Source of the DNA: Candidatus Dojkabacteria bacterium
GTDB lineage: Bacteria > Patescibacteriota > Dojkabacteria > B142 > OLB20
DNA length: 64,000 nt
Direction of reading: 5' to 3'
NCBI GenBank assembly: GCA_035444565.1
Contig: DAOMOX010000002.1
Coordinates: 211,207 to 275,206, forward strand
Under the pieces are notes generated by a model. That model did not search any database and was not told where the DNA came from. It saw only the letters and a list, made by a program, of their open reading frames with translations. Shown piece after piece: positions 17,985 through 26,395 of the stretch. The position numbers and the translations under genes are program-made. Within the stretch, counting starts at the first letter, position 1. Every line of letters begins with the position of its first letter.

Positions 17985-18425
17985 GAAGTTGGGATTAACT
18001 GTTTCGTAAGCCGGATTCTGTATCCTCGCGCTATGCGCAATTGAGATAGTCATTTGTCTATGCCCCCTATTACGAGGTTGCTCCGAGCAGGGGTTACCAT
18101 GCACTTATTTGTTGCCAAATAAGCCGGTGGTCTCTTACACGCCCTTTGATGTACTAATTATCAAAAGACACTGGCTTGGCCAGCCACCTTTTCAAGTTCA
18201 CTTATAGATATTCGTCTTCATTACGATCTTTTTCAGGCGGGCTGACAACCCATTCCTTCTATAAGTACTTTGCTCTCTGTTGCCCTTTTATCCGTAAGTT
18301 CACACCTACCCAGCCACTTCGTCTTCACTTATGTGAGGATCTGTGAATGGTACCCATCCCGTTTTAAAACGAGACAGAAATGGAGTCCGGACTTTCCTCC
18401 CCTCTTTCTAATTCCCAAAGGACCA
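17985..18425 (-). ncRNA. rnpB: RNase P RNA, bacterial type A
   Basis: Reverse complement carries the universal blocks GGAGGAAAGTCCGGACTCC (P4 5' strand), GGGCAACAGAGAGCAAA, GTGTAAGAGACCACC, GGAGCAA…AATAGGGG, AAATGACTATC and ACAGAATCCGGCTTA (P4 3' strand) in the canonical order. An AT-rich insertion sits in the middle, and the ends are approximate (about 15 nt either way). The track ORFs 18270-18455(+), 18380-18562(+) and 18460-18681(-) fall in the GC-rich rnpB zone (the last also lies inside the 185-aa gene) and are treated as spurious. Confidence 0.8.
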
Positions 18426-18472
18426 AGAAGGAGGAGCGACCATCAAAAACAGTGATTAATTATATCACGGAA

Positions 18473-19030
18473 CTAATATGTGATACGATCTTCGAAGGTA
18501 TAGGATTTTTCTCTGTAAACAAGTGTGATTTCGATCTTATAAGAATCTTTTGGTATCGATAAATCAAAATTACTTGGATTTGAGGCACTTCTTGAAAGTT
18601 CGTATTTAGTAAAAGATTCTTTTCCTTGTATATCCCAGTAAATATCAAACGTGTCTCCACTAGTACCCCATGGTTTACCACTCACATAAGGGACAAATCC
18701 AAGATTTACGTTCACTAGTGCCATTGTTTGACTATTAACATTTGCACTAATTTCTCCATCGATTGTAACATCTGCCTGTGTATCTGAAGGAGTTGGGGCT
18801 ACAGATCCGTACATCGCAAAAAGTATAATGCTACCAAGGGTAATAAAACCAATAAGTGGATAAATATTTTTACCTAGGAAACCATAACGAGGATTTTCAA
18901 AATTATTAAGCCTACTTTTAAGATGGAATATGTATAAAACAAGTGTGACAATTACAGAGATAATTACCAGACCAATTAACAACCCTGTCAGAGAGTAACC
19001 TTGATCGTAAATTCCAAAAATATTATCCAT
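18473..19030 (-). CDS. bitopic membrane protein (2 N-terminal TM helices plus a beta-rich C-terminal domain), last gene of the VirB4-like cluster
   Basis: 185 aa with hydrophobic helices LTGLLIGLVIISVIVTLVLYIF and IYPLIGFITLGSIILFAMYG. Function unknown. Confidence 0.5.
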   Translation of the reverse strand: MDNIFGIYDQGYSLTGLLIGLVIISVIVTLVLYIFHLKSRLNNFENPRYGFLGKNIYPLIGFITLGSIILFAMYGSVAPTPSDTQADVTIDGEISANVNSQTMALVNVNLGFVPYVSGKPWGTSGDTFDIYWDIQGKESFTKYELSRSASNPSNFDLSIPKDSYKIEITLVYREKSYTFEDRITY

Positions 19031-19077: not shown

Positions 19078-21354
19078 TTAACCTTGTGTAACATTTGGTC
19101 CAATATTCTGATTATTATTAGTTGTGTTAGCTTGAGGATAATTTACACCAAGTTGATTAATGTTTGAATATTGATTCGTTGGAGGCTGATTTGGCGTATT
19201 ATAGCCAATATTAGGTTGCATTTGTTGATTAACTCCGCCTGCATTCATTGGGGCAGGATTTTGCGGATACATTGGTTGTATATTCTGAGGAGTGGAGTTC
19301 GGGGTAGTCGTGATATTACCTCCAACATTCTGAGCATTTTGACTCATACCAGATTGACCTTGGTTTAGATAACTAGCTCCTGGGGTATTAGTTGCAGGTG
19401 TATTTTGAACAACATTAGTAATATTAGGATCTTTGGCAGTTTGAGGATTAGCCATCTCTTCGGAAATTGGAATTTGTAATTTCTCCAACCTTTGTTTCTC
19501 AGCCTTTTGAAGATTTGCATCTTCCATAGCTCTCATCTCTCTCGGATTAGTTGTTATAAGATTATGTTCATTTTCACTCGCAATAACTTGAATACCTACA
19601 TGATTATTTCCCGCAAAGAAGATACCTTCGCCGATTCCAGCAGTGAGTAGATATTGCTTTTCTCCCATTGATAGGTAGAAGACTTTTTGAAGTTTATCTG
19701 CTGCCGCTGTACTTTGTTTCAATAACACTTGAATTGATGAGTTGGTTACCACAGCTCTTCCATAATCCGTTCCAAGGAAGTCCTCTACGTCTTGGGTAAT
19801 TGTAGTCAAACCAAGTGCGTATTTTCTAGCTCTTTTTGCGATAGAGTGTAAGAACCTAGCACCCTCTTCGAATTGCATCATCCACCAAGCTTCGTCAATG
19901 ATTAATAAGCGCTCTCTTCTGTCTTTTTTAACTCTAGTCCAGATGTAATCCAACATCAGGTACATAGCAATTGGCCTCAGATCTTCAGCTAAATCTCTAA
20001 TACTAAAGACTGTGAATGAGTTTTTGATTTCGATGTTTGTTTTTTGGTCAAAAATACCTGCCGAACTACCTTTGATATATTTTTCAATCTTTTGTGCTAG
20101 CACATGTGCTTCATTTTCAGCCATTGCCATCAAAACTTTGTACAAGTCCTCTAGCAGTGGAGGTTCTCTTCTTTGGGTTGCAGGGTCAGGGGTTATGCCT
20201 TTTTCTTTATAAGTTAGTATTAATGCCCTATCAAGTATGGAACTCTCCATAGAAGTCAATGTTCCACCAACCATAAGCCTGATTAAACCATTTAATAGCA
20301 GAATTTTAAATCTCAATTCGTCTTCGTCTTTATCATAAATACCCGAAAGTTCGAATGGATTAAGTTTCTGACCTCCATCTTGAGAGAATGAGATATAATC
20401 ACCACCAGCAGTTAAACAAAGTTTTTCATATTCCTTCTCAGGGTCAATGATGATTATCTGTGTTCCCATCATTAAACTTCTGATGGCTTCAAGTTTGACC
20501 ATATAACTTTTTCCAGCTCCAGATGTAGCGAAAACTACCATGTTTGCATTTGGCATTTGGAACCTATCGAATATAATCAGACTTTTATTATGTTTATTAA
20601 TTCCGTAGAGGATTCCATCATCCATGGTAAGCTCGGATGAGACAAATGGAAAGGTAGTTGCAAGAGAAGTGGTATCCATATTTCTTGTAAGGTATATTTT
20701 GTCCATTCCCAGTGGCATACTAGTCACAAAGCCTTGCTCTTGTTGAAGTGATGCGATTTTAGTAATTACACCAAGAGCTGATAATGTTGATTCAACGTTT
20801 CTTGAGATTTTCTCTAATTCTTGTAGATTCGTTGATCTTATAGTTATATAGAGTGCAAAATGGAAAAACTTTTCATTACCACTAGCAATTGCTTGTTGTA
20901 ACTCTTCTGCATCTTTGAGGGTGATTTTGATATTTGGATCAGGGATTTTACCAGCTTCAACGTCGATATTTAAAGATGCTTGTAACTCAGCAATTTTTCT
21001 TTTCAATCTAGATAAAATCAGTGCTGAATCAACAGGATAATAAAAAGAGCTGATAGTAAGGGGTCTTTCAAAATTGATAAGTGGTGACAACCAGTTTGCA
21101 CTTACCCATCTTGGGAATCCCGTTGCAAAAAAAGTACGGAAGTACTTGCCCCCGATAAGCATATGATTGAAGTCGATTTCAATCGCCGGTGGAGCAATAA
21201 TGTCTTTGACATCCACTACTGCCTTTGAAAAATCGTCAACTGCAGCCTGTTCAAGTTGATTTTGATCAGGAGCTCCCACCATTTGAACTTGTGGAGAGTT
21301 GCTTTTCTGACCTTTTTTTAATTTATCAAATATTTTAAGTTTTGGTATTTTCAT
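19078..21354 (-). CDS. VirB4/TrbE/TraC-family type-IV-secretion ATPase with Asn/Gln/Pro-rich C-terminal tail
   Basis: N-terminal CagE/TrbE/VirB4 region (GGKYFRTFFATGFPRWVSANWLSPL), Walker A VVFATSGAGKSY and Walker B LLIIDEAWWM (the DEAW signature). The last 123 aa are low-complexity N/Q/P/T-rich. Confidence 0.8.
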   Translation of the reverse strand: MKIPKLKIFDKLKKGQKSNSPQVQMVGAPDQNQLEQAAVDDFSKAVVDVKDIIAPPAIEIDFNHMLIGGKYFRTFFATGFPRWVSANWLSPLINFERPLTISSFYYPVDSALILSRLKRKIAELQASLNIDVEAGKIPDPNIKITLKDAEELQQAIASGNEKFFHFALYITIRSTNLQELEKISRNVESTLSALGVITKIASLQQEQGFVTSMPLGMDKIYLTRNMDTTSLATTFPFVSSELTMDDGILYGINKHNKSLIIFDRFQMPNANMVVFATSGAGKSYMVKLEAIRSLMMGTQIIIIDPEKEYEKLCLTAGGDYISFSQDGGQKLNPFELSGIYDKDEDELRFKILLLNGLIRLMVGGTLTSMESSILDRALILTYKEKGITPDPATQRREPPLLEDLYKVLMAMAENEAHVLAQKIEKYIKGSSAGIFDQKTNIEIKNSFTVFSIRDLAEDLRPIAMYLMLDYIWTRVKKDRRERLLIIDEAWWMMQFEEGARFLHSIAKRARKYALGLTTITQDVEDFLGTDYGRAVVTNSSIQVLLKQSTAAADKLQKVFYLSMGEKQYLLTAGIGEGIFFAGNNHVGIQVIASENEHNLITTNPREMRAMEDANLQKAEKQRLEKLQIPISEEMANPQTAKDPNITNVVQNTPATNTPGASYLNQGQSGMSQNAQNVGGNITTTPNSTPQNIQPMYPQNPAPMNAGGVNQQMQPNIGYNTPNQPPTNQYSNINQLGVNYPQANTTNNNQNIGPNVTQG

Positions 21355-22018
21355 CCGCTTTAAATGAAGTATATTTAGTTGTAGCCAACTCCAAATTCTT
21401 CGCTCCGATTTTGTCAGGATCGTACATAGAATAATAAAGTCTTACTAGTTGTTCGTTATTTAACTGCCAAGTCTCAATTCCCATTTTCTTAAATTGTTTA
21501 AATACATGATCACGCTTAGGATACAAATTAATTTTAGCTTTATCGAAAATTGCTTTACGATTCGTAATTTGAATTCTTTTTCCAAATATTTGCTTAACTA
21601 TTCCCGTCCTTTGAACCTCTGCAGAAATCTCCGGAATTACTATGAAAAATCTTTTATCCAAGACTTCTCTATTGTATGTTAGATTTTTTATGAATTGTAA
21701 GTAGATTTCAATTTGTCGAATTAATGCCTTTGATGCTTGTTGTTGTTTAAAAGATACTAATTTTTCAACATATGCTGTTAAATCAGAGCGTTCTGTTAAA
21801 ATTACTACCTGCATTTGGAAATTAAGAGAATTTAACATTCCTGCGAACATCTTTATTTTTGCATCTTGTTCCTCCTCGGATAAAAGATCAAAGTTTACAG
21901 CACCAGTTTCAATAACCAATGATACTCTTCCATCTTTTAATAAAACCAAGTCATCTCTAATGTCTTCGATTTCAAGATGATCTTGAGTACTTATTTTTGA
22001 ATTTGAAACTATTCCCAT
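21335..22018 (-). CDS. hypothetical protein resembling the detached extreme N-terminal segment of VirB4
   Basis: 227-aa soluble ORF carrying LLKDGRVSLVIETGAVNFDLLSEEEQDAKIKMFAGMLNSL, the pattern of the VirB4 N-terminus. It overlaps the VirB4-like gene start by 20 nt. Confidence 0.4.
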   Translation of the reverse strand: MGIVSNSKISTQDHLEIEDIRDDLVLLKDGRVSLVIETGAVNFDLLSEEEQDAKIKMFAGMLNSLNFQMQVVILTERSDLTAYVEKLVSFKQQQASKALIRQIEIYLQFIKNLTYNREVLDKRFFIVIPEISAEVQRTGIVKQIFGKRIQITNRKAIFDKAKINLYPKRDHVFKQFKKMGIETWQLNNEQLVRLYYSMYDPDKIGAKNLELATTKYTSFKADENTKT

Positions 22019-22815
22019 TATTTAGCTTTAAACTTATAAAGAATGTCTTGGTTATCTTTTACATTTATTCTGTAATACTCAAAGACTAATTTAGGTGCCG
22101 CAATGCTTACAAAATAAACACCTGGACTAAGAGCCGTATCTAAATTAAACTGTCCTTTATCATCTGTAGTTACTTCGTTGATAAATTCACCGCTCTCAGA
22201 GTTTACACTAACTAACGCACCTTGTACTGGATTATCTTTATTATCTACTACAAATCCTTTAATCATTATTGTTTTAGATGAGCTGCCTTGTTCAGAAGTA
22301 ATTGTAGATGTATTTAGAGAAGTATCTGATGATTGTGTCCCGAACATTTCTTGTTCAATTTGTTTTAATCTTAGCTCCTCCTCTCTATCAGCAACAGTAA
22401 ACTCTTTCTGTACTTCAAATTTAGTCAGCGGAGCTACGGATGCTCGAATACGGCCTTCTTTTTTAACTTTCTCTAATGTTTCTTCTTTTGTTCTTTTCAC
22501 TTCTTCATGAAAAACATCTGGAACAACCCCAGTTTTTTTCCAAACTCGCTCTTGGGAAGTAAACATTGCAACAATGAAATTAGTCAACCACACAGAAGAA
22601 TATTGACCATTAATTTTTATCAGAGAAAGAAAAATCCCTAATATTACTGCGATTATAATTAATACAACTCTCAGAATCCCAGGTAAAGGTGTGAAATATA
22701 TTCCCAATGCTATCATCAGTAAGGTCGCAAGATAGGCAAATTGTTTTACAGAGAGAGCACCAAAGAGTTTGAACTCTACTTCCATTATGTTTTGTGGGAC
22801 TGCGTGTCTCTCCAT
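22018..22815 (-). CDS. 2-TM membrane protein (VirB3-like topology) fused to a carboxypeptidase-regulatory-like beta-sandwich domain
   Basis: N-terminal hairpin of two TM helices (LATLLMIALGIYFTPLPGILRVVLIIIAVILGIFL). The C-terminus (GFVVDNKDNPVQGALVSVNSESGEFINEVTTDDKGQFNLD) resembles a CarboxypepD_reg domain. It overlaps the next gene by 1 nt. Confidence 0.45.
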   Translation of the reverse strand: MERHAVPQNIMEVEFKLFGALSVKQFAYLATLLMIALGIYFTPLPGILRVVLIIIAVILGIFLSLIKINGQYSSVWLTNFIVAMFTSQERVWKKTGVVPDVFHEEVKRTKEETLEKVKKEGRIRASVAPLTKFEVQKEFTVADREEELRLKQIEQEMFGTQSSDTSLNTSTITSEQGSSSKTIMIKGFVVDNKDNPVQGALVSVNSESGEFINEVTTDDKGQFNLDTALSPGVYFVSIAAPKLVFEYYRINVKDNQDILYKFKAK

Positions 22816-23284: not shown

Positions 23285-26200
23285 TTATTTTTTTAATTCA
23301 AACTTAAAAATCTTATCTCCTGTCAGAACACCAGAATATATGTATTTATTATTATCTTTAATAAAATCAGTGCCTTCCGGAGTTACATCGAATTCTGGGT
23401 CAAATGCAATCTCTAAATCATAGTTGCTCTCTATTCCAGGATTCTTGTTTAATCTTAACATAAAAATCGTTTGTTTTGTTTCCGGATTTGCGAATTGACT
23501 AGATGTAAAGCTCATTCCATAAGATAAATCATCATCTTCTAAATAGATATTACAAGTCTTATCTGTTGAATAAGTTGTTGATACTAACTCTGGGGCTACA
23601 TCAATATTTTCAATATTTTGAGCACCACCATTTACACACAAATATCCATTTTGTAAATTATCAACATTATTCAACCTCAAATTGAGCGTAGACTTTGCAA
23701 TATAGTCAGCATCGATATTGATAGCACCAGATATTGTCGAAATCGGGTACTTAATCAGATCGCTTTTTGCATCTGGATTGTGATTCATTCCAAAGAATAT
23801 TTCTGCATTAGGCGAATAGCCAACACCTGTAATTGACCTGAGAAATGATTCAAACTCTGGGTTATTTGAATAGTAGAGCATATCTTTCGTATTATGTGAA
23901 TATACCAATGTATTCACTATGTCGTTTATATTGTTATTAAGATTATTAAACGCATCAGCTATATTTTTTGCATATAAATTCATAATAATCTCATTCCTGG
24001 CAATTAAGTCATTTGAATTGTTTAAAAGACTAATGTTATTCAGCAAATTATCATCATTAAAATTAAGTTGTCGGAAATTAATATCACCTTGGTTTTGCAT
24101 AGCATTACTCAAAGTACCGACATTTGTGGAGATAACTAAGTCAATATTAGATTTCGTGTTTAGTTCGAAATTTCTTTCAATTACTCTTAAGAAAAGATTC
24201 GGTTCGGAAATATTGTATAAATCCTGAAAGACGATATTCTCTGCGCTAACTTCCTTACTGGAAACTAAATTTATAGAAGAAACCACATCACTTGAAACCA
24301 CATCCTTGTTTAATACAGGCGTTTTGAGGATTTCTGTATTCAATGTCTTTAATGTACCTTGGTCTATGGTGAAATTGATATAACCAACAATAGCACCGCC
24401 AGAGCTACTATACCTCGTATTGTCTTGAACAACTACCAAGTAATTTATTGGCTTTTCTCGCCCCATCAGTAATGGAAGATTATTATACTGATTTGCAATG
24501 AATTGCGAGGCTTTAAATTTCTCATCTAAATCAAGCATTTTTTCTGATGTATTTTGTATTAATTCTGCAGGAAGTCTTTGAGAGTATACGTATGCTTCTT
24601 CTTTTGATGAGGAAATCCGCCCTAAACTATCTTCAATGATTCCTCTTTGAGCATACATAGTATCCAACTCTTCTTTGAAGTTTTCACTGTCATTAGTGCT
24701 TAGCAATCTGTCCTCACCAAATCTGTATACAATACTCGGATTCGAATTATTAATAAATGTTTGCATAGGAATATATGCGTTCAATAAATCGGTATACCCT
24801 TCTGAGTAATCAATTGAACTCGCAAGATATTTCTGAGTAGAACTATATAAATCTTCTTTATTTAACAAAGAAAACAAATACTGTAAATCTTCAACTCTTG
24901 CCTGCGCTGACTCTAAGTTATCTTTAAGTTTAAGGTTATTGTCACTTGCTTCTACGAAGTTTAAGCTAGATACGTTTTCGATTACCCGATCATAATAAAC
25001 CCTCGTGAAAAATATATTTCTACTTAAACTAAACAGCGGAGAAATCAGCATGAAATAAATTACAGCAAATCCCGTGATTAGAAACAATGTTACAACGAAA
25101 TCGGTAACTGTGACGTTTTTTAGGAAAAATATTCTTCTACTAAATCCAAATAAAATATCATGAAGTGAAGTGTCAATTTTTTGTAGTATTGATTGTTTTT
25201 CCTTAGGTTTCTTGGATGATTTGTTGTTTACGTTCGCCTGTATCATGTTTCCTGTTCTGGCCATATCAAGCTTCTTCCTTTCTGCAATTAATTTAGAAAT
25301 CGCGTCACCATCACCACCTTCATTCTCAGCAACGAAAAAGAAATCACGAATTTTTTCAGACATGTTCTTAGTATTTGATACTTTCAATGAAGCATCCTCT
25401 TTAAGTGCTTTCTCAATTATTAATAGTTCTTGAATATACTCAATGGTTTGAATTAATGATCTATCAAACTCAATACGAGGTCTCCAGCCAATAGTTACTA
25501 AACTCTCTGCAGGTTTATACAATATTAATGAAGGATATTGGTCGTCTTCACTATCAAATCGTATCTCTCTTGCTGTAGGCAATAATTCTAAGAGTTTATA
25601 TGCAATTGAAAGTATTGTGACTTCTTCTGGATTAGCTAATGTGAATATTTTTCCTTTTGTACTCGCGGAGAATTGCGCTTTCAACACTCCATAAGCTGCA
25701 TCAAGATAATGAATGTAGTAATTAGCTTCTAATCCATCACCAGGTACTTTCAAGTCTTTTCCTTCAAGCCCATACCTAATAAGTTTAATGAGACTAGAAT
25801 TTTGATCAAATTCTGTACCTCGGCCAATTATTTCACCTAGTCTTAATATTCTGGCATTTATCCCCACTCTCTGAATGTACTCTTGAACCAAACTTTCAGA
25901 GTATCTTTGTATCTCAAGCTCCATATATTGTGAATGGTTCGAAGTACTATTCAGCCCGTAATTGTAATCGAGATGAGCATTTGAAATATTTAATTGATGT
26001 GCTTTTATTGAAGTTGTTAGAAGGAATTTGGAGTCAAATTTTGAACATAAATCCAAGATTGAATCTAAATAGTTAGAATTTTGCAGGTACTTTTGAGTAG
26101 AGATTTTTTCTTTAAGGTGTGTTGATTTATGTTCGAAATAAAACACATAATCAAGCCTGCGTAAATCAAGACCTAAGGTATTAATCGCAGAGAAATTTAG

Positions 26201-26395
26201 AACTGTAAGATTTTTGTACTTAACTAGTGGATCAAGAAGCTTACGAGATGCGTTGCTTTCACTGTCAATGATAATCACGTAACCACCCTGTTCCAGCAAG
26301 GATCGTGCGATCTCGACACCAAGTACATTCGCACCTTTAACGATAATAGAGGTAGGAAACCTCACTGAACCATGTAATTTTTTAACTACATTCAT
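23285..26395 (-). CDS. giant membrane protein: cytoplasmic SDR/epimerase-like N-domain, single TM helix and large extracytoplasmic C-domain
   Basis: The N-terminus is Rossmann-like (IIVKGANVLGVEIARSLLEQGGYVIIID) with a YxxxK motif (AAYGVLK). A TM helix sits near residue 440 (VTDFVVTLFLITGFAVIYFMLISPLF). An approximately 580-aa N/S/L-rich C-terminal region has no recognised motif. Confidence 0.55.
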   Translation of the reverse strand: MNVVKKLHGSVRFPTSIIVKGANVLGVEIARSLLEQGGYVIIIDSESNASRKLLDPLVKYKNLTVLNFSAINTLGLDLRRLDYVFYFEHKSTHLKEKISTQKYLQNSNYLDSILDLCSKFDSKFLLTTSIKAHQLNISNAHLDYNYGLNSTSNHSQYMELEIQRYSESLVQEYIQRVGINARILRLGEIIGRGTEFDQNSSLIKLIRYGLEGKDLKVPGDGLEANYYIHYLDAAYGVLKAQFSASTKGKIFTLANPEEVTILSIAYKLLELLPTAREIRFDSEDDQYPSLILYKPAESLVTIGWRPRIEFDRSLIQTIEYIQELLIIEKALKEDASLKVSNTKNMSEKIRDFFFVAENEGGDGDAISKLIAERKKLDMARTGNMIQANVNNKSSKKPKEKQSILQKIDTSLHDILFGFSRRIFFLKNVTVTDFVVTLFLITGFAVIYFMLISPLFSLSRNIFFTRVYYDRVIENVSSLNFVEASDNNLKLKDNLESAQARVEDLQYLFSLLNKEDLYSSTQKYLASSIDYSEGYTDLLNAYIPMQTFINNSNPSIVYRFGEDRLLSTNDSENFKEELDTMYAQRGIIEDSLGRISSSKEEAYVYSQRLPAELIQNTSEKMLDLDEKFKASQFIANQYNNLPLLMGREKPINYLVVVQDNTRYSSSGGAIVGYINFTIDQGTLKTLNTEILKTPVLNKDVVSSDVVSSINLVSSKEVSAENIVFQDLYNISEPNLFLRVIERNFELNTKSNIDLVISTNVGTLSNAMQNQGDINFRQLNFNDDNLLNNISLLNNSNDLIARNEIIMNLYAKNIADAFNNLNNNINDIVNTLVYSHNTKDMLYYSNNPEFESFLRSITGVGYSPNAEIFFGMNHNPDAKSDLIKYPISTISGAINIDADYIAKSTLNLRLNNVDNLQNGYLCVNGGAQNIENIDVAPELVSTTYSTDKTCNIYLEDDDLSYGMSFTSSQFANPETKQTIFMLRLNKNPGIESNYDLEIAFDPEFDVTPEGTDFIKDNNKYIYSGVLTGDKIFKFELKK

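What the first reader, a model, noticed from the sequence alone, without database searches (positions are those of the whole stretch)
19078..19450. Prion-like Asn/Gln/Pro/Thr-rich 123-aa C-terminal tail on the VirB4-like ATPase
After the ATPase domain the protein ends in a low-complexity region (NPQTAKDPNITNVVQNTPATNTPG…NNNQNIGPNVTQG) with about 25% Asn and roughly 14% Gln. VirB4 proteins normally end with the ATPase domain, so a Q/N-rich disordered tail on a cytoplasmic secretion ATPase is atypical. It could mediate condensate or phase-separation assembly, or a protein-protein interaction.
Basis: seen in the sequence. Interest (0 to 1): 0.5.

Follow-up and report, generated by a model that had tools for sequence, protein, structure and literature searches.

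The report
Disordered polar tail on VirB4 ATPase
The secretion-system motor protein VirB4 of this small Dojkabacteria (candidate phyla radiation) bacterium does end in a 123-residue, almost uncharged, Asn/Gln/Pro/Thr-rich floppy tail. Relatives carry tails of very different length and make-up, so it is better read as a fast-evolving flexible appendage than as a conserved prion-like domain.

Summary
The 758-aa VirB4-like ATPase (window 19078-21354, minus strand) ends in a 123-aa tail (aa 636-758) with N 22%, Q 14.6%, P 13%, T 11%, and its last 116 residues are uncharged. No other ORF in the window resembles it. AlphaFold2 gives pLDDT of about 30 and no secondary structure for aa 633-758. It is not an assembly artefact: the identical protein is on three contigs and in two NCBI records, and relatives from many assemblies keep a tail in the same gene order.

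The tail evolves very differently from the core. Against a strain whose core is 99.5% identical, the tail is 64% identical and has in-frame indels. Synonymous divergence is the same (dS 0.56 against 0.48), but dN/dS is 0.38 in the tail and 0.008 in the core. This indicates relaxed, composition-level selection, not hypermutation and not pure drift.

Tail make-up follows locus GC: N/Q-rich at 35% GC and A/P-rich at 39-44% GC. Tail length after the core ranges from 2 to 175 aa across Dojkabacteria VirB4. Low charge, proline and disorder are what is conserved. Asn/Gln richness is not.

Most likely it is a selectively maintained flexible cytoplasmic tether carrying short conserved motifs. A prion or condensate role is not excluded and is not supported.

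The parts
19078..21354 (-). virB4-like gene, 758 codons plus stop. MPF-FATA / CD1110-type T4SS ATPase.
   Evidence: ORF. Pfam P-loop_TraG 1.6e-22, AAA_10 and DUF87. NCBIfam NF045971 scores 395.7 bits, above the 325 cut-off. PDB 4AG5 matches at 6e-46. P-loop ATSGAGKS at aa 276-283 and Walker B LLIIDEAW at aa 483-490 are present, with invariant columns there.
19537..21354 (-). Conserved VirB4 core, aa 1-606, ending ...EHNLITTNPRE.
   Evidence: Column conservation in 121 sequences drops after residue 606. dN/dS is 0.008 against L001.
19450..19536 (-). Conserved charged segment after the core, aa 607-635 (MRAMEDANLQKAEKQRLEKLQIPISEEMA). It is largely a confident helix.
   Evidence: AF2 predicts a helix at 604-626, with block pLDDT of 88 and 81. 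Conservation is z = 8-18 above composition in related tails. dN is 0.014 against L001.
19081..19449 (-). The reported tail, aa 636-758: an uncharged N/Q/P/T-rich intrinsically disordered region.
   Evidence: Composition. pLDDT is below 50 with no secondary structure for 633-758. dN is 0.215 and dS 0.56 against L001, with in-frame indels of 9 and 12 nt. It is unique in the window.
19351..19377 (-). Conserved island 1 inside the tail, ASYLNQGQS (aa 660-668).
   Evidence: Best-match score in 11 related tails is z of about 5 above composition-preserving shuffles. It is visible in the cluster alignment as (S/P)(Y/L)(L/I/N/M)NQGQ.
19132..19155 (-). Conserved island 2, QLGVNYPQ (aa 734-741).
   Evidence: z of about 6. 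The NYPQ column block is seen.
19081..19116 (-). Conserved extreme C-terminal motif NNQNIGPNVTQG (aa 747-758). G-P-N-[VI]-T is shared across cluster members whose tails are otherwise 25-40% identical.
   Evidence: z of about 4-5. Alignment. The last 24 nt are identical to L001, while the tail DNA overall is 77% identical.
19078..19080 (-). Stop codon TAA.
21335..22018 (-). TrsD-like 227-aa protein. It is related to the N-terminal part of long VirB4 proteins and overlaps the virB4 start by 20 nt.
   Evidence: NCBIfam TrsD 1.8e-6, and NF045975 positions 100-280 at 1.4e-9. Marked 'TraC-like' and syntenic in all loci. TrsD next to VirB4 is described for Patescibacteria in PMC12102498.
22018..22815 (-). 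PrgI (VirB3-like) membrane protein fused to a CarboxypepD_reg beta-sandwich domain.
   Evidence: Pfam PrgI 3.3e-8 at aa 6-91 and CarboxypepD_reg 3.3e-10 at aa 185-256. Syntenic in all loci.
18473..19030 (-). Conserved 185-aa protein of no known family, starting 48 nt downstream of virB4. Probably co-transcribed.
   Evidence: ORF. No Pfam or NCBIfam match. A 185-197 aa gene sits at this position in L001-L007. No terminator-like or minus-strand promoter-like site lies between the genes.

Best explanation
The tail is a genuine, lineage-specific intrinsically disordered region (IDR) on the C-terminus of the T4SS ATPase VirB4 of a Candidatus Dojkabacteria (WS6, Patescibacteria/CPR) bacterium. Selection keeps it for bulk properties (long, open, nearly uncharged, polar, interrupted by prolines) and not for its sequence.

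The Asn/Gln richness is how an AT-rich (35% GC) genome encodes such a region. Relatives with more GC encode the equivalent tail with Ala and Pro.

Inferred mechanism: VirB4 has no membrane segment, and its C-terminal ATPase domain forms the cytoplasm-facing ring of the T4SS. Each subunit would therefore project a flexible tether of about 120 residues into the cytoplasm. Three short islands conserved above composition (ASYLNQGQS, QLGVNYPQ and the terminal NNQN-GPN[VI]T) are candidate docking motifs. Presented in several copies per ring, they could capture a partner weakly but with avidity, whether a substrate, a regulator or another T4SS component. This is the way the flexible C-terminal tail of the related coupling ATPase TraD captures TraM.

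What is shown: the tail exists, is predicted disordered, is unique in the window, has a normal mutation rate, is under relaxed but non-neutral constraint, has a composition that tracks GC, and contains islands of conservation. What is inferred: its cytoplasmic location, the tether and docking function, and the existence and identity of any partner.
For: - Reality of the tail: the identical protein is in two NCBI records and on three contigs, including an independent Logan assembly.
- Disorder: AF2 pLDDT is about 29-36 with no secondary structure for 633-758, after a confident helix at 604-626.
- Normal mutation rate: against L001, dS is 0.562 in the tail and 0.484 in the core (Fisher p = 0.52).
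- Relaxed constraint: dN is 0.215 in the tail and 0.004 in the core (p = 4e-37).
- Not neutral: tail dN/dS of 0.38 is below 1 (binomial p = 8e-4).
- The frame is kept open: a tail of 82-176 codons persists in every member of clusters 1-3, although dS against L004 is saturated (above 2). Shuffled tail DNA carries 7.5 stops per 123 codons, and 29 tail codons are one substitution from a stop.
- Charge is kept out: 225 of 1107 single-nucleotide paths lead to a charged residue. Yet the fraction of charged residues is 0.016, against about 26% D+E+K+R in the window proteome. Orthologous tails at 39% and 44% GC carry 6% and 1% charged residues.
- Composition follows GC: N18 Q14 P11 A7 at 34.9% GC, N7 Q22 P11 A5 at 36.8%, N2 Q8 P15 A24 at 39.3%, and N0 Q6 P27 A24 at 43.5%.
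- Islands conserved above composition, z = 4-6.
- No membrane segment: the maximum Kyte-Doolittle 19-residue mean is 1.49.
- Precedent: the flexible C-terminal tail of TraD binds TraM weakly and relies on avidity (PMC3159463).
Against: - The tail is dispensable for core VirB4 function in the phylum. Many Dojkabacteria orthologues at 64-84% identity have only 2-20 residues after the core.
- The conserved islands are shared only within the closest clade (core at least 90% identical). Sister groups end in a different motif, QLYQ[GS]. Part of the island signal could therefore be residual common ancestry rather than constraint.
- The dN/dS estimate rests on one unsaturated pair. Alignment of low-complexity sequence tends to overstate identity.
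- The link between GC and composition rests on four independent lineages. A proxy test on 42 tails gave only weak correlations (rho 0.39 for N and -0.36 for A).
- No partner is known, and no interaction could be tested.
Confidence: 0.5

Rival explanations
1. Tolerated low-complexity growth with no function of its own. The C-terminus of VirB4 points into solvent, so replication slippage and loss or shift of the stop codon let polar low-complexity sequence accumulate. Selection removes only what is harmful (hydrophobic, aggregation-prone or charged residues). The length is a by-product.
For: - Tail length after the core ranges from 2 to 175 aa among close homologues, with a median of 29.
- Broad representatives show many unrelated extensions at the same spot, and some at the N-terminus.
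- Composition tracks genomic GC.
- In-frame indels separate near-identical strains.
- The tail alone finds no homologue.
Against: - Tail dN/dS of 0.38 is significantly below 1.
- An open frame of 80-176 codons persists through saturating synonymous divergence, although 29 codons are one step from a stop.
- Charged residues are almost absent, although 20% of single-step mutations would create one.
- Islands are conserved at z = 4-6 above composition.
- Tandem Repeats Finder found no tandem repeats that would indicate recent slippage.
Confidence: 0.27
2. One reading: a prion-like or condensate-forming Q/N-rich domain. It would drive self-association of VirB4 or T4SS complexes by phase separation or amyloid-like switching, as described for IDR insertions in the hexameric ATPase Rho.
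For: - The tail has 33 N+Q in its best 80-aa window. This exceeds the count criterion for Q/N-rich domains (30 per 80; Michelitsch and Weissman 2000, from my own knowledge).
- The fraction of charged residues is 0.016, there are 5 Tyr, and there is a 26-aa proline-free stretch, GASYLNQGQSGMSQNAQNVGGNITTT.
- Precedent: the N-rich insertion of C. botulinum Rho forms amyloid, and the B. thetaiotaomicron Rho IDR phase-separates (PMC11347177).
- The protein is multivalent, because VirB4 forms rings.
Against: - Q/N richness is not conserved. Orthologous tails are A/P-rich with 2-8% or 0-6% N and Q at higher GC.
- Only 14 of 143 Dojkabacteria-type VirB4 and 1 of 150 broad representatives reach the count criterion.
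- 16 prolines (13%) and 14 threonines are spread through the tail. From my own knowledge, proline is strongly disfavoured in prion-forming cores.
- The tail is missing in many orthologues.
- PLAAC, PAPA and FuzDrop could not be run.
Confidence: 0.12
3. Targeted hypervariation. The tail would be a diversified region, such as a DGR variable region or a region under diversifying selection, which would explain 64% tail identity beside 99.5% core identity.
For: - The contrast between core and tail divergence is large.
- The tail is rich in AAT/AAC codons (27 Asn), the codon type that DGRs diversify.
- From my own knowledge, DGRs are common in CPR bacteria.
Against: - Synonymous divergence in the tail equals that in the core (0.56 against 0.48, p = 0.52), so there is no local hypermutation.
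- dN/dS is 0.38, below 1.
- The 64-kb window holds no second copy of the tail DNA that could act as a template repeat; the best other blastn match is 23 nt.
- The variation includes indels, which DGRs do not make.
Confidence: 0.02
4. Artefact: a chimeric assembly, a frameshift or a misplaced stop codon joins unrelated sequence to virB4.
For: None found. Low-complexity DNA can in principle be misassembled.
Against: - The identical 758-aa protein is on three contigs (7.8 kb, 50-200 kb and 0.2-1 Mb) from different sources and in two NCBI records.
- 15 or more cluster members from NCBI, JGI, ENA and Logan assemblies have homologous tails.
- The downstream 185-aa gene follows at the same distance in all loci.
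- Codon usage and GC of the tail match the core: 37.7% against 37.1%.
Confidence: 0.01

Closest known systems
C-terminal extension of the F-plasmid coupling protein TraD (VirD4-type T4SS ATPase, same FtsK/HerA-related superfamily as VirB4)
   Same: It is a flexible C-terminal tail appended to a hexameric T4SS ATPase on the cytoplasmic side. Its extreme C-terminal residues dock a partner (TraM) weakly, and binding is strengthened by avidity over several tails (PMC3159463). The design is the same: ATPase core, then a variable flexible stretch, then a terminal motif.
   Different: The TraD tail is strongly acidic and charged, ending ...RERGEDVEPGDDF (F plasmid TraD translated). The Dojkabacteria tail has 2 charged residues in 123. 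TraD is the coupling protein and not VirB4. Its partner is known, whereas here none is. There is no sequence similarity.
Disordered or prion-like insertion regions of the transcription terminator Rho (C. botulinum, Bacteroides thetaiotaomicron)
   Same: Rho is a ring-forming RecA-type ATPase. It has lineage-variable, compositionally extreme, predicted-disordered additions, some of them N/Q-rich and scored prion-like. Phase separation or amyloid formation has been shown in two species (PMC11347177).
   Different: The Rho regions are N-terminal or internal and act in RNA binding. They are typically also rich in R, D and G, and are therefore charged. Nothing has been tested for the VirB4 tail, and its Q/N richness is not conserved in orthologues.
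AQGP-rich C-terminal extensions of VirB8 in Xanthomonadales bacteria-killing T4SSs
   Same: These are low-complexity, Gln/Pro-containing C-terminal extensions of about 100 aa on a T4SS subunit. They are lineage-specific, variable in length and of unknown function (PMC6536674). Their composition suits the host genome's GC: Ala/Gly/Pro in high-GC Xanthomonas and Asn/Gln/Thr here.
   Different: They sit on VirB8 in the periplasm, not on the cytoplasmic ATPase, and in a different T4SS class and phylum.
Disordered linker plus terminal peptide designs: FtsZ C-terminal linker with C-terminal peptide, the SSB disordered linker with acidic tip, and the FtsK Pro/Gln-rich linker (from my own knowledge, not tested here)
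   Same: Each has a linker of variable length and variable sequence, kept for its disorder and composition, that connects a conserved oligomeric core to a short conserved motif.
   Different: In those systems the terminal peptide is conserved across phyla and its partners are known. Here the terminal motif is conserved only within a genus-level clade.

Membership tests
VirB4 T4SS ATPase (MPF-FATA / CD1110 type, Patescibacteria clade) | Sequence match to curated VirB4 models above threshold | tested here: met
   NCBIfam NF045971 'VirB4-like conjugal transfer ATPase, CD1110 family' scores 395.7 bits against a cut-off of 325. Pfam P-loop_TraG scores 80.2 bits against a cut-off of 25.8. PDB 4AG5 VirB4 C-terminal domain matches at 6.3e-46.
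VirB4 T4SS ATPase (MPF-FATA / CD1110 type, Patescibacteria clade) | Intact nucleotide-binding motifs (P-loop [AG]xxxxGK[ST] and Walker B hhhhDE) | tested here: met
   ATSGAGKS at aa 276-283 and LLIIDEAW at aa 483-490. G279, G281, K282, S283, D487 and E488 are invariant in 75 sequences.
VirB4 T4SS ATPase (MPF-FATA / CD1110 type, Patescibacteria clade) | Encoded next to other T4SS components (VirB3/PrgI, TrsD) | tested here: met
   PrgI-like and TrsD-like genes lie immediately upstream. The arrangement is conserved in L001-L007. It matches the arrangement described in PMC12102498.
Intrinsically disordered low-complexity region | No predicted stable structure | tested here: met
   AF2 with a 75-sequence alignment gives pLDDT below 50 (block means 29-36) and no helix or strand for aa 633-758.
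Intrinsically disordered low-complexity region | Compositional bias with few order-promoting residues, fast sequence and length evolution, and retained composition | tested here: met
   Entropy is 3.34 against 4.09 bits, and C, F, W, H, E and R are absent. The tail is 16-64% identical where the core is 91-99.5% identical, and it has indels. dN/dS is 0.38 against 0.008.
Q/N-rich prion-like domain | At least 30 Q+N in 80 consecutive residues (count criterion recalled from Michelitsch and Weissman 2000) | tested here: met
   33 in the window starting at aa 671.
Q/N-rich prion-like domain | Positive score from a trained predictor (PLAAC, PAPA) | not testable with these tools
   Neither program nor its parameter tables were available, so I did not rely on values recalled from memory.
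Q/N-rich prion-like domain | Q/N-rich character conserved in orthologues, as expected if it were the selected property | tested here: not met
   Orthologous tails at 39% and 44% GC have N2 Q8 A24 P15 and N0 Q6 A24 P27. Only 14 of 143 Dojkabacteria-type VirB4 reach the count criterion.
Q/N-rich prion-like domain | Self-propagating aggregation or phase separation | not testable with these tools
   This needs experiments. Only Rho precedents are available.
Tethered C-terminal docking peptide (TraD-TraM type) | Variable flexible spacer between the ATPase core and the terminus | tested here: met
Tethered C-terminal docking peptide (TraD-TraM type) | Terminal motif conserved beyond what composition and ancestry explain | tested here: inconclusive
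   NNQN-GPN[VI]T scores z = 4-5 above shuffles and is kept in tails otherwise 25-40% identical. Sister clades end in QLYQ[GS], QDVDLNLP[ST] or ENMNYVQ. Phylogenetic inertia was not controlled for.
Tethered C-terminal docking peptide (TraD-TraM type) | An identified binding partner | not testable with these tools
DGR variable region | A template repeat nearly identical to the variable region, plus a reverse transcriptase nearby | tested here: not met
   No second copy of the tail DNA occurs in the 64-kb window. dS in the tail equals dS in the core. The rest of the genome was not searched.

The most novel reading that the evidence does not exclude
The uncharged Q/N/P/T tail is a functional assembly or recruitment module. 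Presented in several copies on the cytoplasmic face of the VirB4 ring, it would either drive condensate-like clustering of T4SS machines at the host-contact site of this probably epibiotic CPR cell, or act as a fly-casting tether that recruits substrates. The second role would partly replace the coupling protein and relaxase, which Patescibacteria T4SS loci generally lack next to virB4 (PMC12102498). The hypervariable middle of the tail would tune reach, and the three conserved islands would give specificity.
Probability: 0.1. Interest if true: 0.6.

Novelty: new variant of a known kind. Interest (0 to 1): 0.3.

Why it matters
The T4SS is widespread in Patescibacteria. Its genes (VirB4, PrgI, TrsD, VirB6) were reported as essential for epibiotic growth in a cultured Saccharibacterium (cited in PMC12102498), yet what it transports and how substrates are recruited are unknown.

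A selectively maintained flexible tail on the most conserved protein of the locus (core dN/dS 0.008) is a cheap experimental handle. Tail-deletion or motif-swap mutants, or pull-downs with the tail peptide, could reveal partners of an otherwise opaque machine.

More generally, the locus is a clean natural example of an IDR whose amino-acid make-up drifts with genome GC while low charge, proline and disorder are kept. This cautions against reading 'prion-like' from Q/N counts in AT-rich genomes.

Tried and rejected
- Tandem repeats in the tail DNA: none at score 30 or above. Recent slippage of a unit repeat does not explain the tail.
- DGR or template repeat: blastn of the tail against the window found only its own copy. 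Rejected.
- Tail-only protein search in the 5.8-billion-protein set: no hit at E <= 0.001, not even to its own cluster representative. The tail is not a recognisable or mobile domain.
- Core FYMINK/GARP ratio as a proxy for genomic GC across 42 tails: the core is too conserved for this to be informative (range 0.56-0.62), and the correlations were weak. I replaced it with direct GC of five loci.
- dN/dS against L004: synonymous sites are saturated (dS 2.4-3), so only the L001 pair was usable for rates.
- Promoter or terminator inside or after the tail, in case the DNA had a regulatory role: no minus-strand site.
- Complementary distribution of N-terminal and C-terminal low-complexity regions: 0 of 13 long-N-lead homologues have a C-terminal tail of 60 aa or more, against 20 of 107 others. 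This is suggestive but not significant, so I do not claim it.
- Literature search for disordered C-terminal extensions on VirB4: nothing about VirB4 itself.
- All were rerun successfully.
- F plasmid accession AP001918 was not in the collections, so I used NC_002483 instead.
Full report
**What is there.** The finding lies at the 3' end of a minus-strand ORF, window 19078..21354, encoding 758 aa. The protein is a VirB4-type T4SS ATPase.
- Pfam matches are P-loop_TraG (1.6e-22), AAA_10 and DUF87.
- NCBIfam 'VirB4-like conjugal transfer ATPase, CD1110 family' scores 395.7 bits against a cut-off of 325.
- The only solved relative by sequence is the VirB4 C-terminal domain of Thermoanaerobacter pseudethanolicus, 4AG5 (6e-46), which aligns to residues 266-600 and ends five residues later.
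- The P-loop (ATSGAGKS, aa 276-283) and Walker B (LLIIDEAW, aa 483-490) are intact and invariant in relatives.
- Source names of the homologues place the organism in Candidatus Dojkabacteria (WS6), a lineage of the candidate phyla radiation. Window GC is 34.9%.

**Checking the observation.**
- The quoted peptide is aa 636-758, 123 residues, encoded by nt 19081-19449 with the stop at 19078-19080.
- Composition is N 22.0%, Q 14.6%, P 13.0%, T 11.4% and G 8.9%. C, E, F, H, R and W are absent. The only charges are K641 and D642, so the last 116 residues are uncharged.
- Among 68 non-overlapping ORFs in the window, this is the only one with 30 or more N+Q in an 80-residue window. It has 33; the others range from 3 to 15, apart from one at 26. 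Its uncharged run of 116 aa compares with at most 33 aa elsewhere. The tail is therefore not a genome-wide habit.
- Only 0.07% of shuffles of the tail DNA are free of stop codons.

**Not an artefact.** The exact 758-aa sequence is in NCBI twice (HRN86273.1 and HRP51400.1). It is found on three contigs, including an independent Logan assembly of run SRR1763385 and a contig of 620,866 bp. Fifteen listed members of its 90% cluster, from NCBI, JGI, ENA and Logan, carry homologous tails. The gene order is the same in seven loci: epimerase/DUF4012 protein, GreA, PrgI-like, TrsD-like, VirB4, then a protein of about 185 aa. Tail GC (37.7%) matches core GC (37.1%).

**Anatomy.** In an alignment of 121 sequences, conservation is near-complete up to ...EHNLITTNPRE (residue 606) and then collapses. 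AlphaFold2 with a 75-sequence alignment predicts a confident helix at 604-626 (block pLDDT 88 and 81). After it, there is no secondary structure and pLDDT is about 30 for 633-758. The overall model is mediocre (pTM 0.48), so I use it only for the order/disorder boundary. The layout is therefore core (1-606), a conserved charged helix (607 to about 632), then a disordered polar tail (636-758). The protein has no membrane-spanning segment: the maximum 19-residue hydropathy is 1.49. By the established topology of VirB4, the tail should be cytoplasmic. This is an inference.

**How it evolves.** Within the 90% cluster, the core is 91-99.5% identical to the query, while the tail is 16-64% identical and has many gaps. 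I compared the query with L001, a strain whose protein is P0124, by Nei-Gojobori counts.

| Region | dS | dN | dN/dS |
|---|---|---|---|
| Core | 0.484 | 0.004 | 0.008 |
| Tail | 0.562 | 0.215 | 0.38 |

- Synonymous change per site does not differ between core and tail (Fisher p = 0.52). Nonsynonymous change differs about 65-fold (p = 4e-37). Tail dN/dS is below 1 (binomial p = 8e-4).
- The two indels between these strains are in frame, 9 and 12 nt.
- The tail therefore mutates at the normal rate and is under strongly relaxed constraint, but it is not drifting freely.
- Three further facts argue for maintenance. First, an open frame of 82-176 codons after the core persists in all members of the three closest clusters, even though synonymous sites against L004 are saturated. 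Second, 29 tail codons are one substitution from a stop. Third, 20% of single-nucleotide changes would create a charged residue, yet the charged fraction is 0.016.
- There is no tandem repeat and no second copy of the tail DNA in the window. With equal dS, this excludes a diversity-generating retroelement acting from within the window.

**What is conserved, and what is not.** Across the 120 best homologues (64-91% identical), the stretch after residue 606 is 2-175 aa long, with a median of 29. Twenty have at least 60 aa. The tail is therefore an accessory and not part of the basic machine. The table below covers the full stretch after core residue 606, in loci for which I fetched DNA.

| Locus | Locus GC | N | Q | P | A | Charged |
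|---|---|---|---|---|---|---|
| window | 34.9% | 18% | 14% | 11% | 7% | 9% |
| L007 | 36.8% | 7% | 22% | 11% | 5% | 13% |
| L005 | 39.3% | 2% | 8% | 15% | 24% | 6% |
| L006 | 43.5% | 0% | 6% | 27% | 24% | 1% |

- Low charge, proline and length persist, while Asn/Gln richness does not. Only 14 of 143 Dojkabacteria-type VirB4 and 1 of 150 broad representatives reach 30 N+Q per 80 residues.
- This is the main reason I do not read the tail as a conserved prion-like domain. Asn and Gln are how an AT-rich genome spells 'uncharged polar disorder'.
- The evidence is four lineages. An amino-acid proxy over 42 tails gave only weak support.

**The wider family.** A full HMMER scan of 1.84 billion representatives with the core found 10,437 relatives. 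Among 132 of the top 150 whose match reaches the end of the core, the median C-terminal overhang is 27.5 aa, 39 have at least 60 aa and 30 have at least 100 aa. About half of the long overhangs are low-complexity, either P/Q/A/T/S-rich or E/K-rich. The rest are a folded domain of about 180 aa with no Pfam match. Some Dojkabacteria VirB4 instead carry Q/N-rich stretches in an extended N-terminal lead. The statement that VirB4 ends with its ATPase domain holds for the solved example. It does not hold for this clade, where both termini readily acquire extensions. The recent survey of Patescibacteria T4SS (PMC12102498) describes the PrgI-TrsD-VirB4 arrangement seen here but does not mention tails. 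A text search for disordered C-terminal extensions of VirB4 found nothing on VirB4 itself.

**Motifs.** I scored each 8-residue window of the query tail by its best ungapped match in 11 related tails, against 500 composition-preserving shuffles.
- The helix stands out (z = 8-18).
- Most of the tail is at composition level (z between -1 and 2.5).
- Three islands rise above it: ASYLNQGQS at aa 660-668 (z about 5), QLGVNYPQ at aa 734-741 (z about 6), and the terminal NNQNIGPNVTQG at aa 747-758 (z = 4-5).
- The last 24 nt are identical between the query and L001, whereas the tail DNA as a whole is 77% identical.
- Sister groups end in other short motifs: QLYQ[GS], QDVDLNLP[ST] and ENMNYVQ.
- The pattern looks like short linear motifs set in a variable spacer. 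The sequences are related, however, and I could not correct for shared ancestry, so I rate this inconclusive.

**Most likely mechanism.** I commit, at about 0.5, to a selectively maintained, uncharged, proline-interrupted flexible tether projecting from the cytoplasmic face of the VirB4 ring. It carries short docking motifs that would act through avidity. The closest working analogue is the flexible C-terminal tail of the related coupling ATPase TraD. Its terminal residues bind TraM weakly and rely on several tails binding at once (PMC3159463). The TraD tail is acidic, ending ...EPGDDF, so the chemistry differs.

**Rivals.**
- A tolerated, functionless expansion (0.27). This fits the length variability and the GC tracking, but not dN/dS below 1, the persistent open frame or the exclusion of charge.
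- A prion or condensate module as in Rho (0.12; PMC11347177). This fits the Q/N count, but not the non-conservation of Q/N or the 13% proline.
- Targeted hypervariation (0.02) and artefact (0.01). Both are essentially excluded.

**Verdict.** This is a new variant of a known kind of feature, a low-complexity tail on a T4SS or ring ATPase. It is of moderate interest, mainly as an experimental handle on the poorly understood Patescibacteria T4SS.

Noticed in passing
P0209, P0210, P0228, P0231, P0237, P0254, P0256, P0257, P0261, P0266, P0281, P0284, P0288, P0293 (relatives), C-terminal ~170-240 aa: About 14 of the 150 best VirB4 representatives carry a folded-looking extra C-terminal domain, usually 170-210 aa. 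It has a shared motif HxFL ... PDI(I/V)F ... (A/V)xE(V/I)ETG, which resembles a PD-(D/E)xK nuclease signature. Pfam finds nothing there in the four I scanned. A nuclease-like domain fused to VirB4 would be worth a separate look.
   Followed up: partly
P0254 (aa 5-75) and P0284 (aa 300-927), relatives: P0254 has a PrgI (VirB3-like) match at its N-terminus (23.5 bits, below Pfam's 27-bit cut-off), so it may be a VirB3-VirB4 fusion. P0284 has an intein with a LAGLIDADG domain inserted in VirB4. The Patescibacteria survey reported no VirB3-VirB4 fusions in its dataset. The taxonomic origin of these two proteins is unknown.
   Followed up: no
window 19537-21354 (-): The VirB4 core has the strongest purifying selection of the six genes compared in this locus. 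dN/dS is 0.008 against L001, compared with 0.015 for GreA and 0.08-0.1 for PrgI-like, p185 and PPIase. The core is 64-91% identical across the 120 best hits. This fits an essential role.
   Followed up: partly
window 21335-22018 (-): This 227-aa ORF overlaps the virB4 start by 20 nt. It matches TrsD and positions 100-280 of the long mycoplasma-ICE VirB4 model. It looks like a split-off N-terminal VirB4 domain, as described for Patescibacteria TrsD.
   Followed up: partly
window 22018-22815 (-): The PrgI/VirB3-like membrane protein is fused to a C-terminal CarboxypepD_reg-type beta-sandwich at aa 185-256. This domain is presumably outside the cell. In L006 the orthologue is 398 aa instead of 265.
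   Followed up: no
window 18473-19030 (-): A 185-aa protein with an N-terminal hydrophobic segment and no family match lies 48 nt downstream of virB4. It is always present in relatives at 185-197 aa. It is a candidate uncharacterised T4SS component. It has the highest dS of the locus against L001 (0.86).
   Followed up: no
L004 7433-7711 (+): A close relative of the window carries a 92-aa Kunitz/BPTI-domain gene between the p185 gene and the PPIase gene. The window and L001 lack it. A Kunitz/BPTI domain is one I would not have expected in a CPR bacterium (my own impression, not checked).
   Followed up: no
window 23285-26395 (-), aa ~745-825: The 1036-aa epimerase/DUF4012 protein has the only other Asn-rich stretch in the window, with 26 N+Q per 80 aa (...NNLLNNISLLNNSNDLIARNEIIMNLYAKNIADAFNNLNNNINDIVN...). 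Unlike the VirB4 tail, it contains charged and hydrophobic residues.
   Followed up: no
window 17992-18455 (-): The bacterial RNase P RNA (class A) match spans 464 nt for a 367-position model and scores 110 bits, just above the gathering score of 100. This suggests lineage-specific insertions.
   Followed up: no
P0081 aa 10-89, P0113 aa 2-81, P0110 aa 27-106, P0159 aa 1-448 (relatives): Some VirB4 relatives have Q/N-rich low-complexity leads at the N-terminus and short C-terminal tails of 2-23 aa. The low-complexity region may sit at either end. The apparent either/or pattern is not statistically significant.
   Followed up: partly
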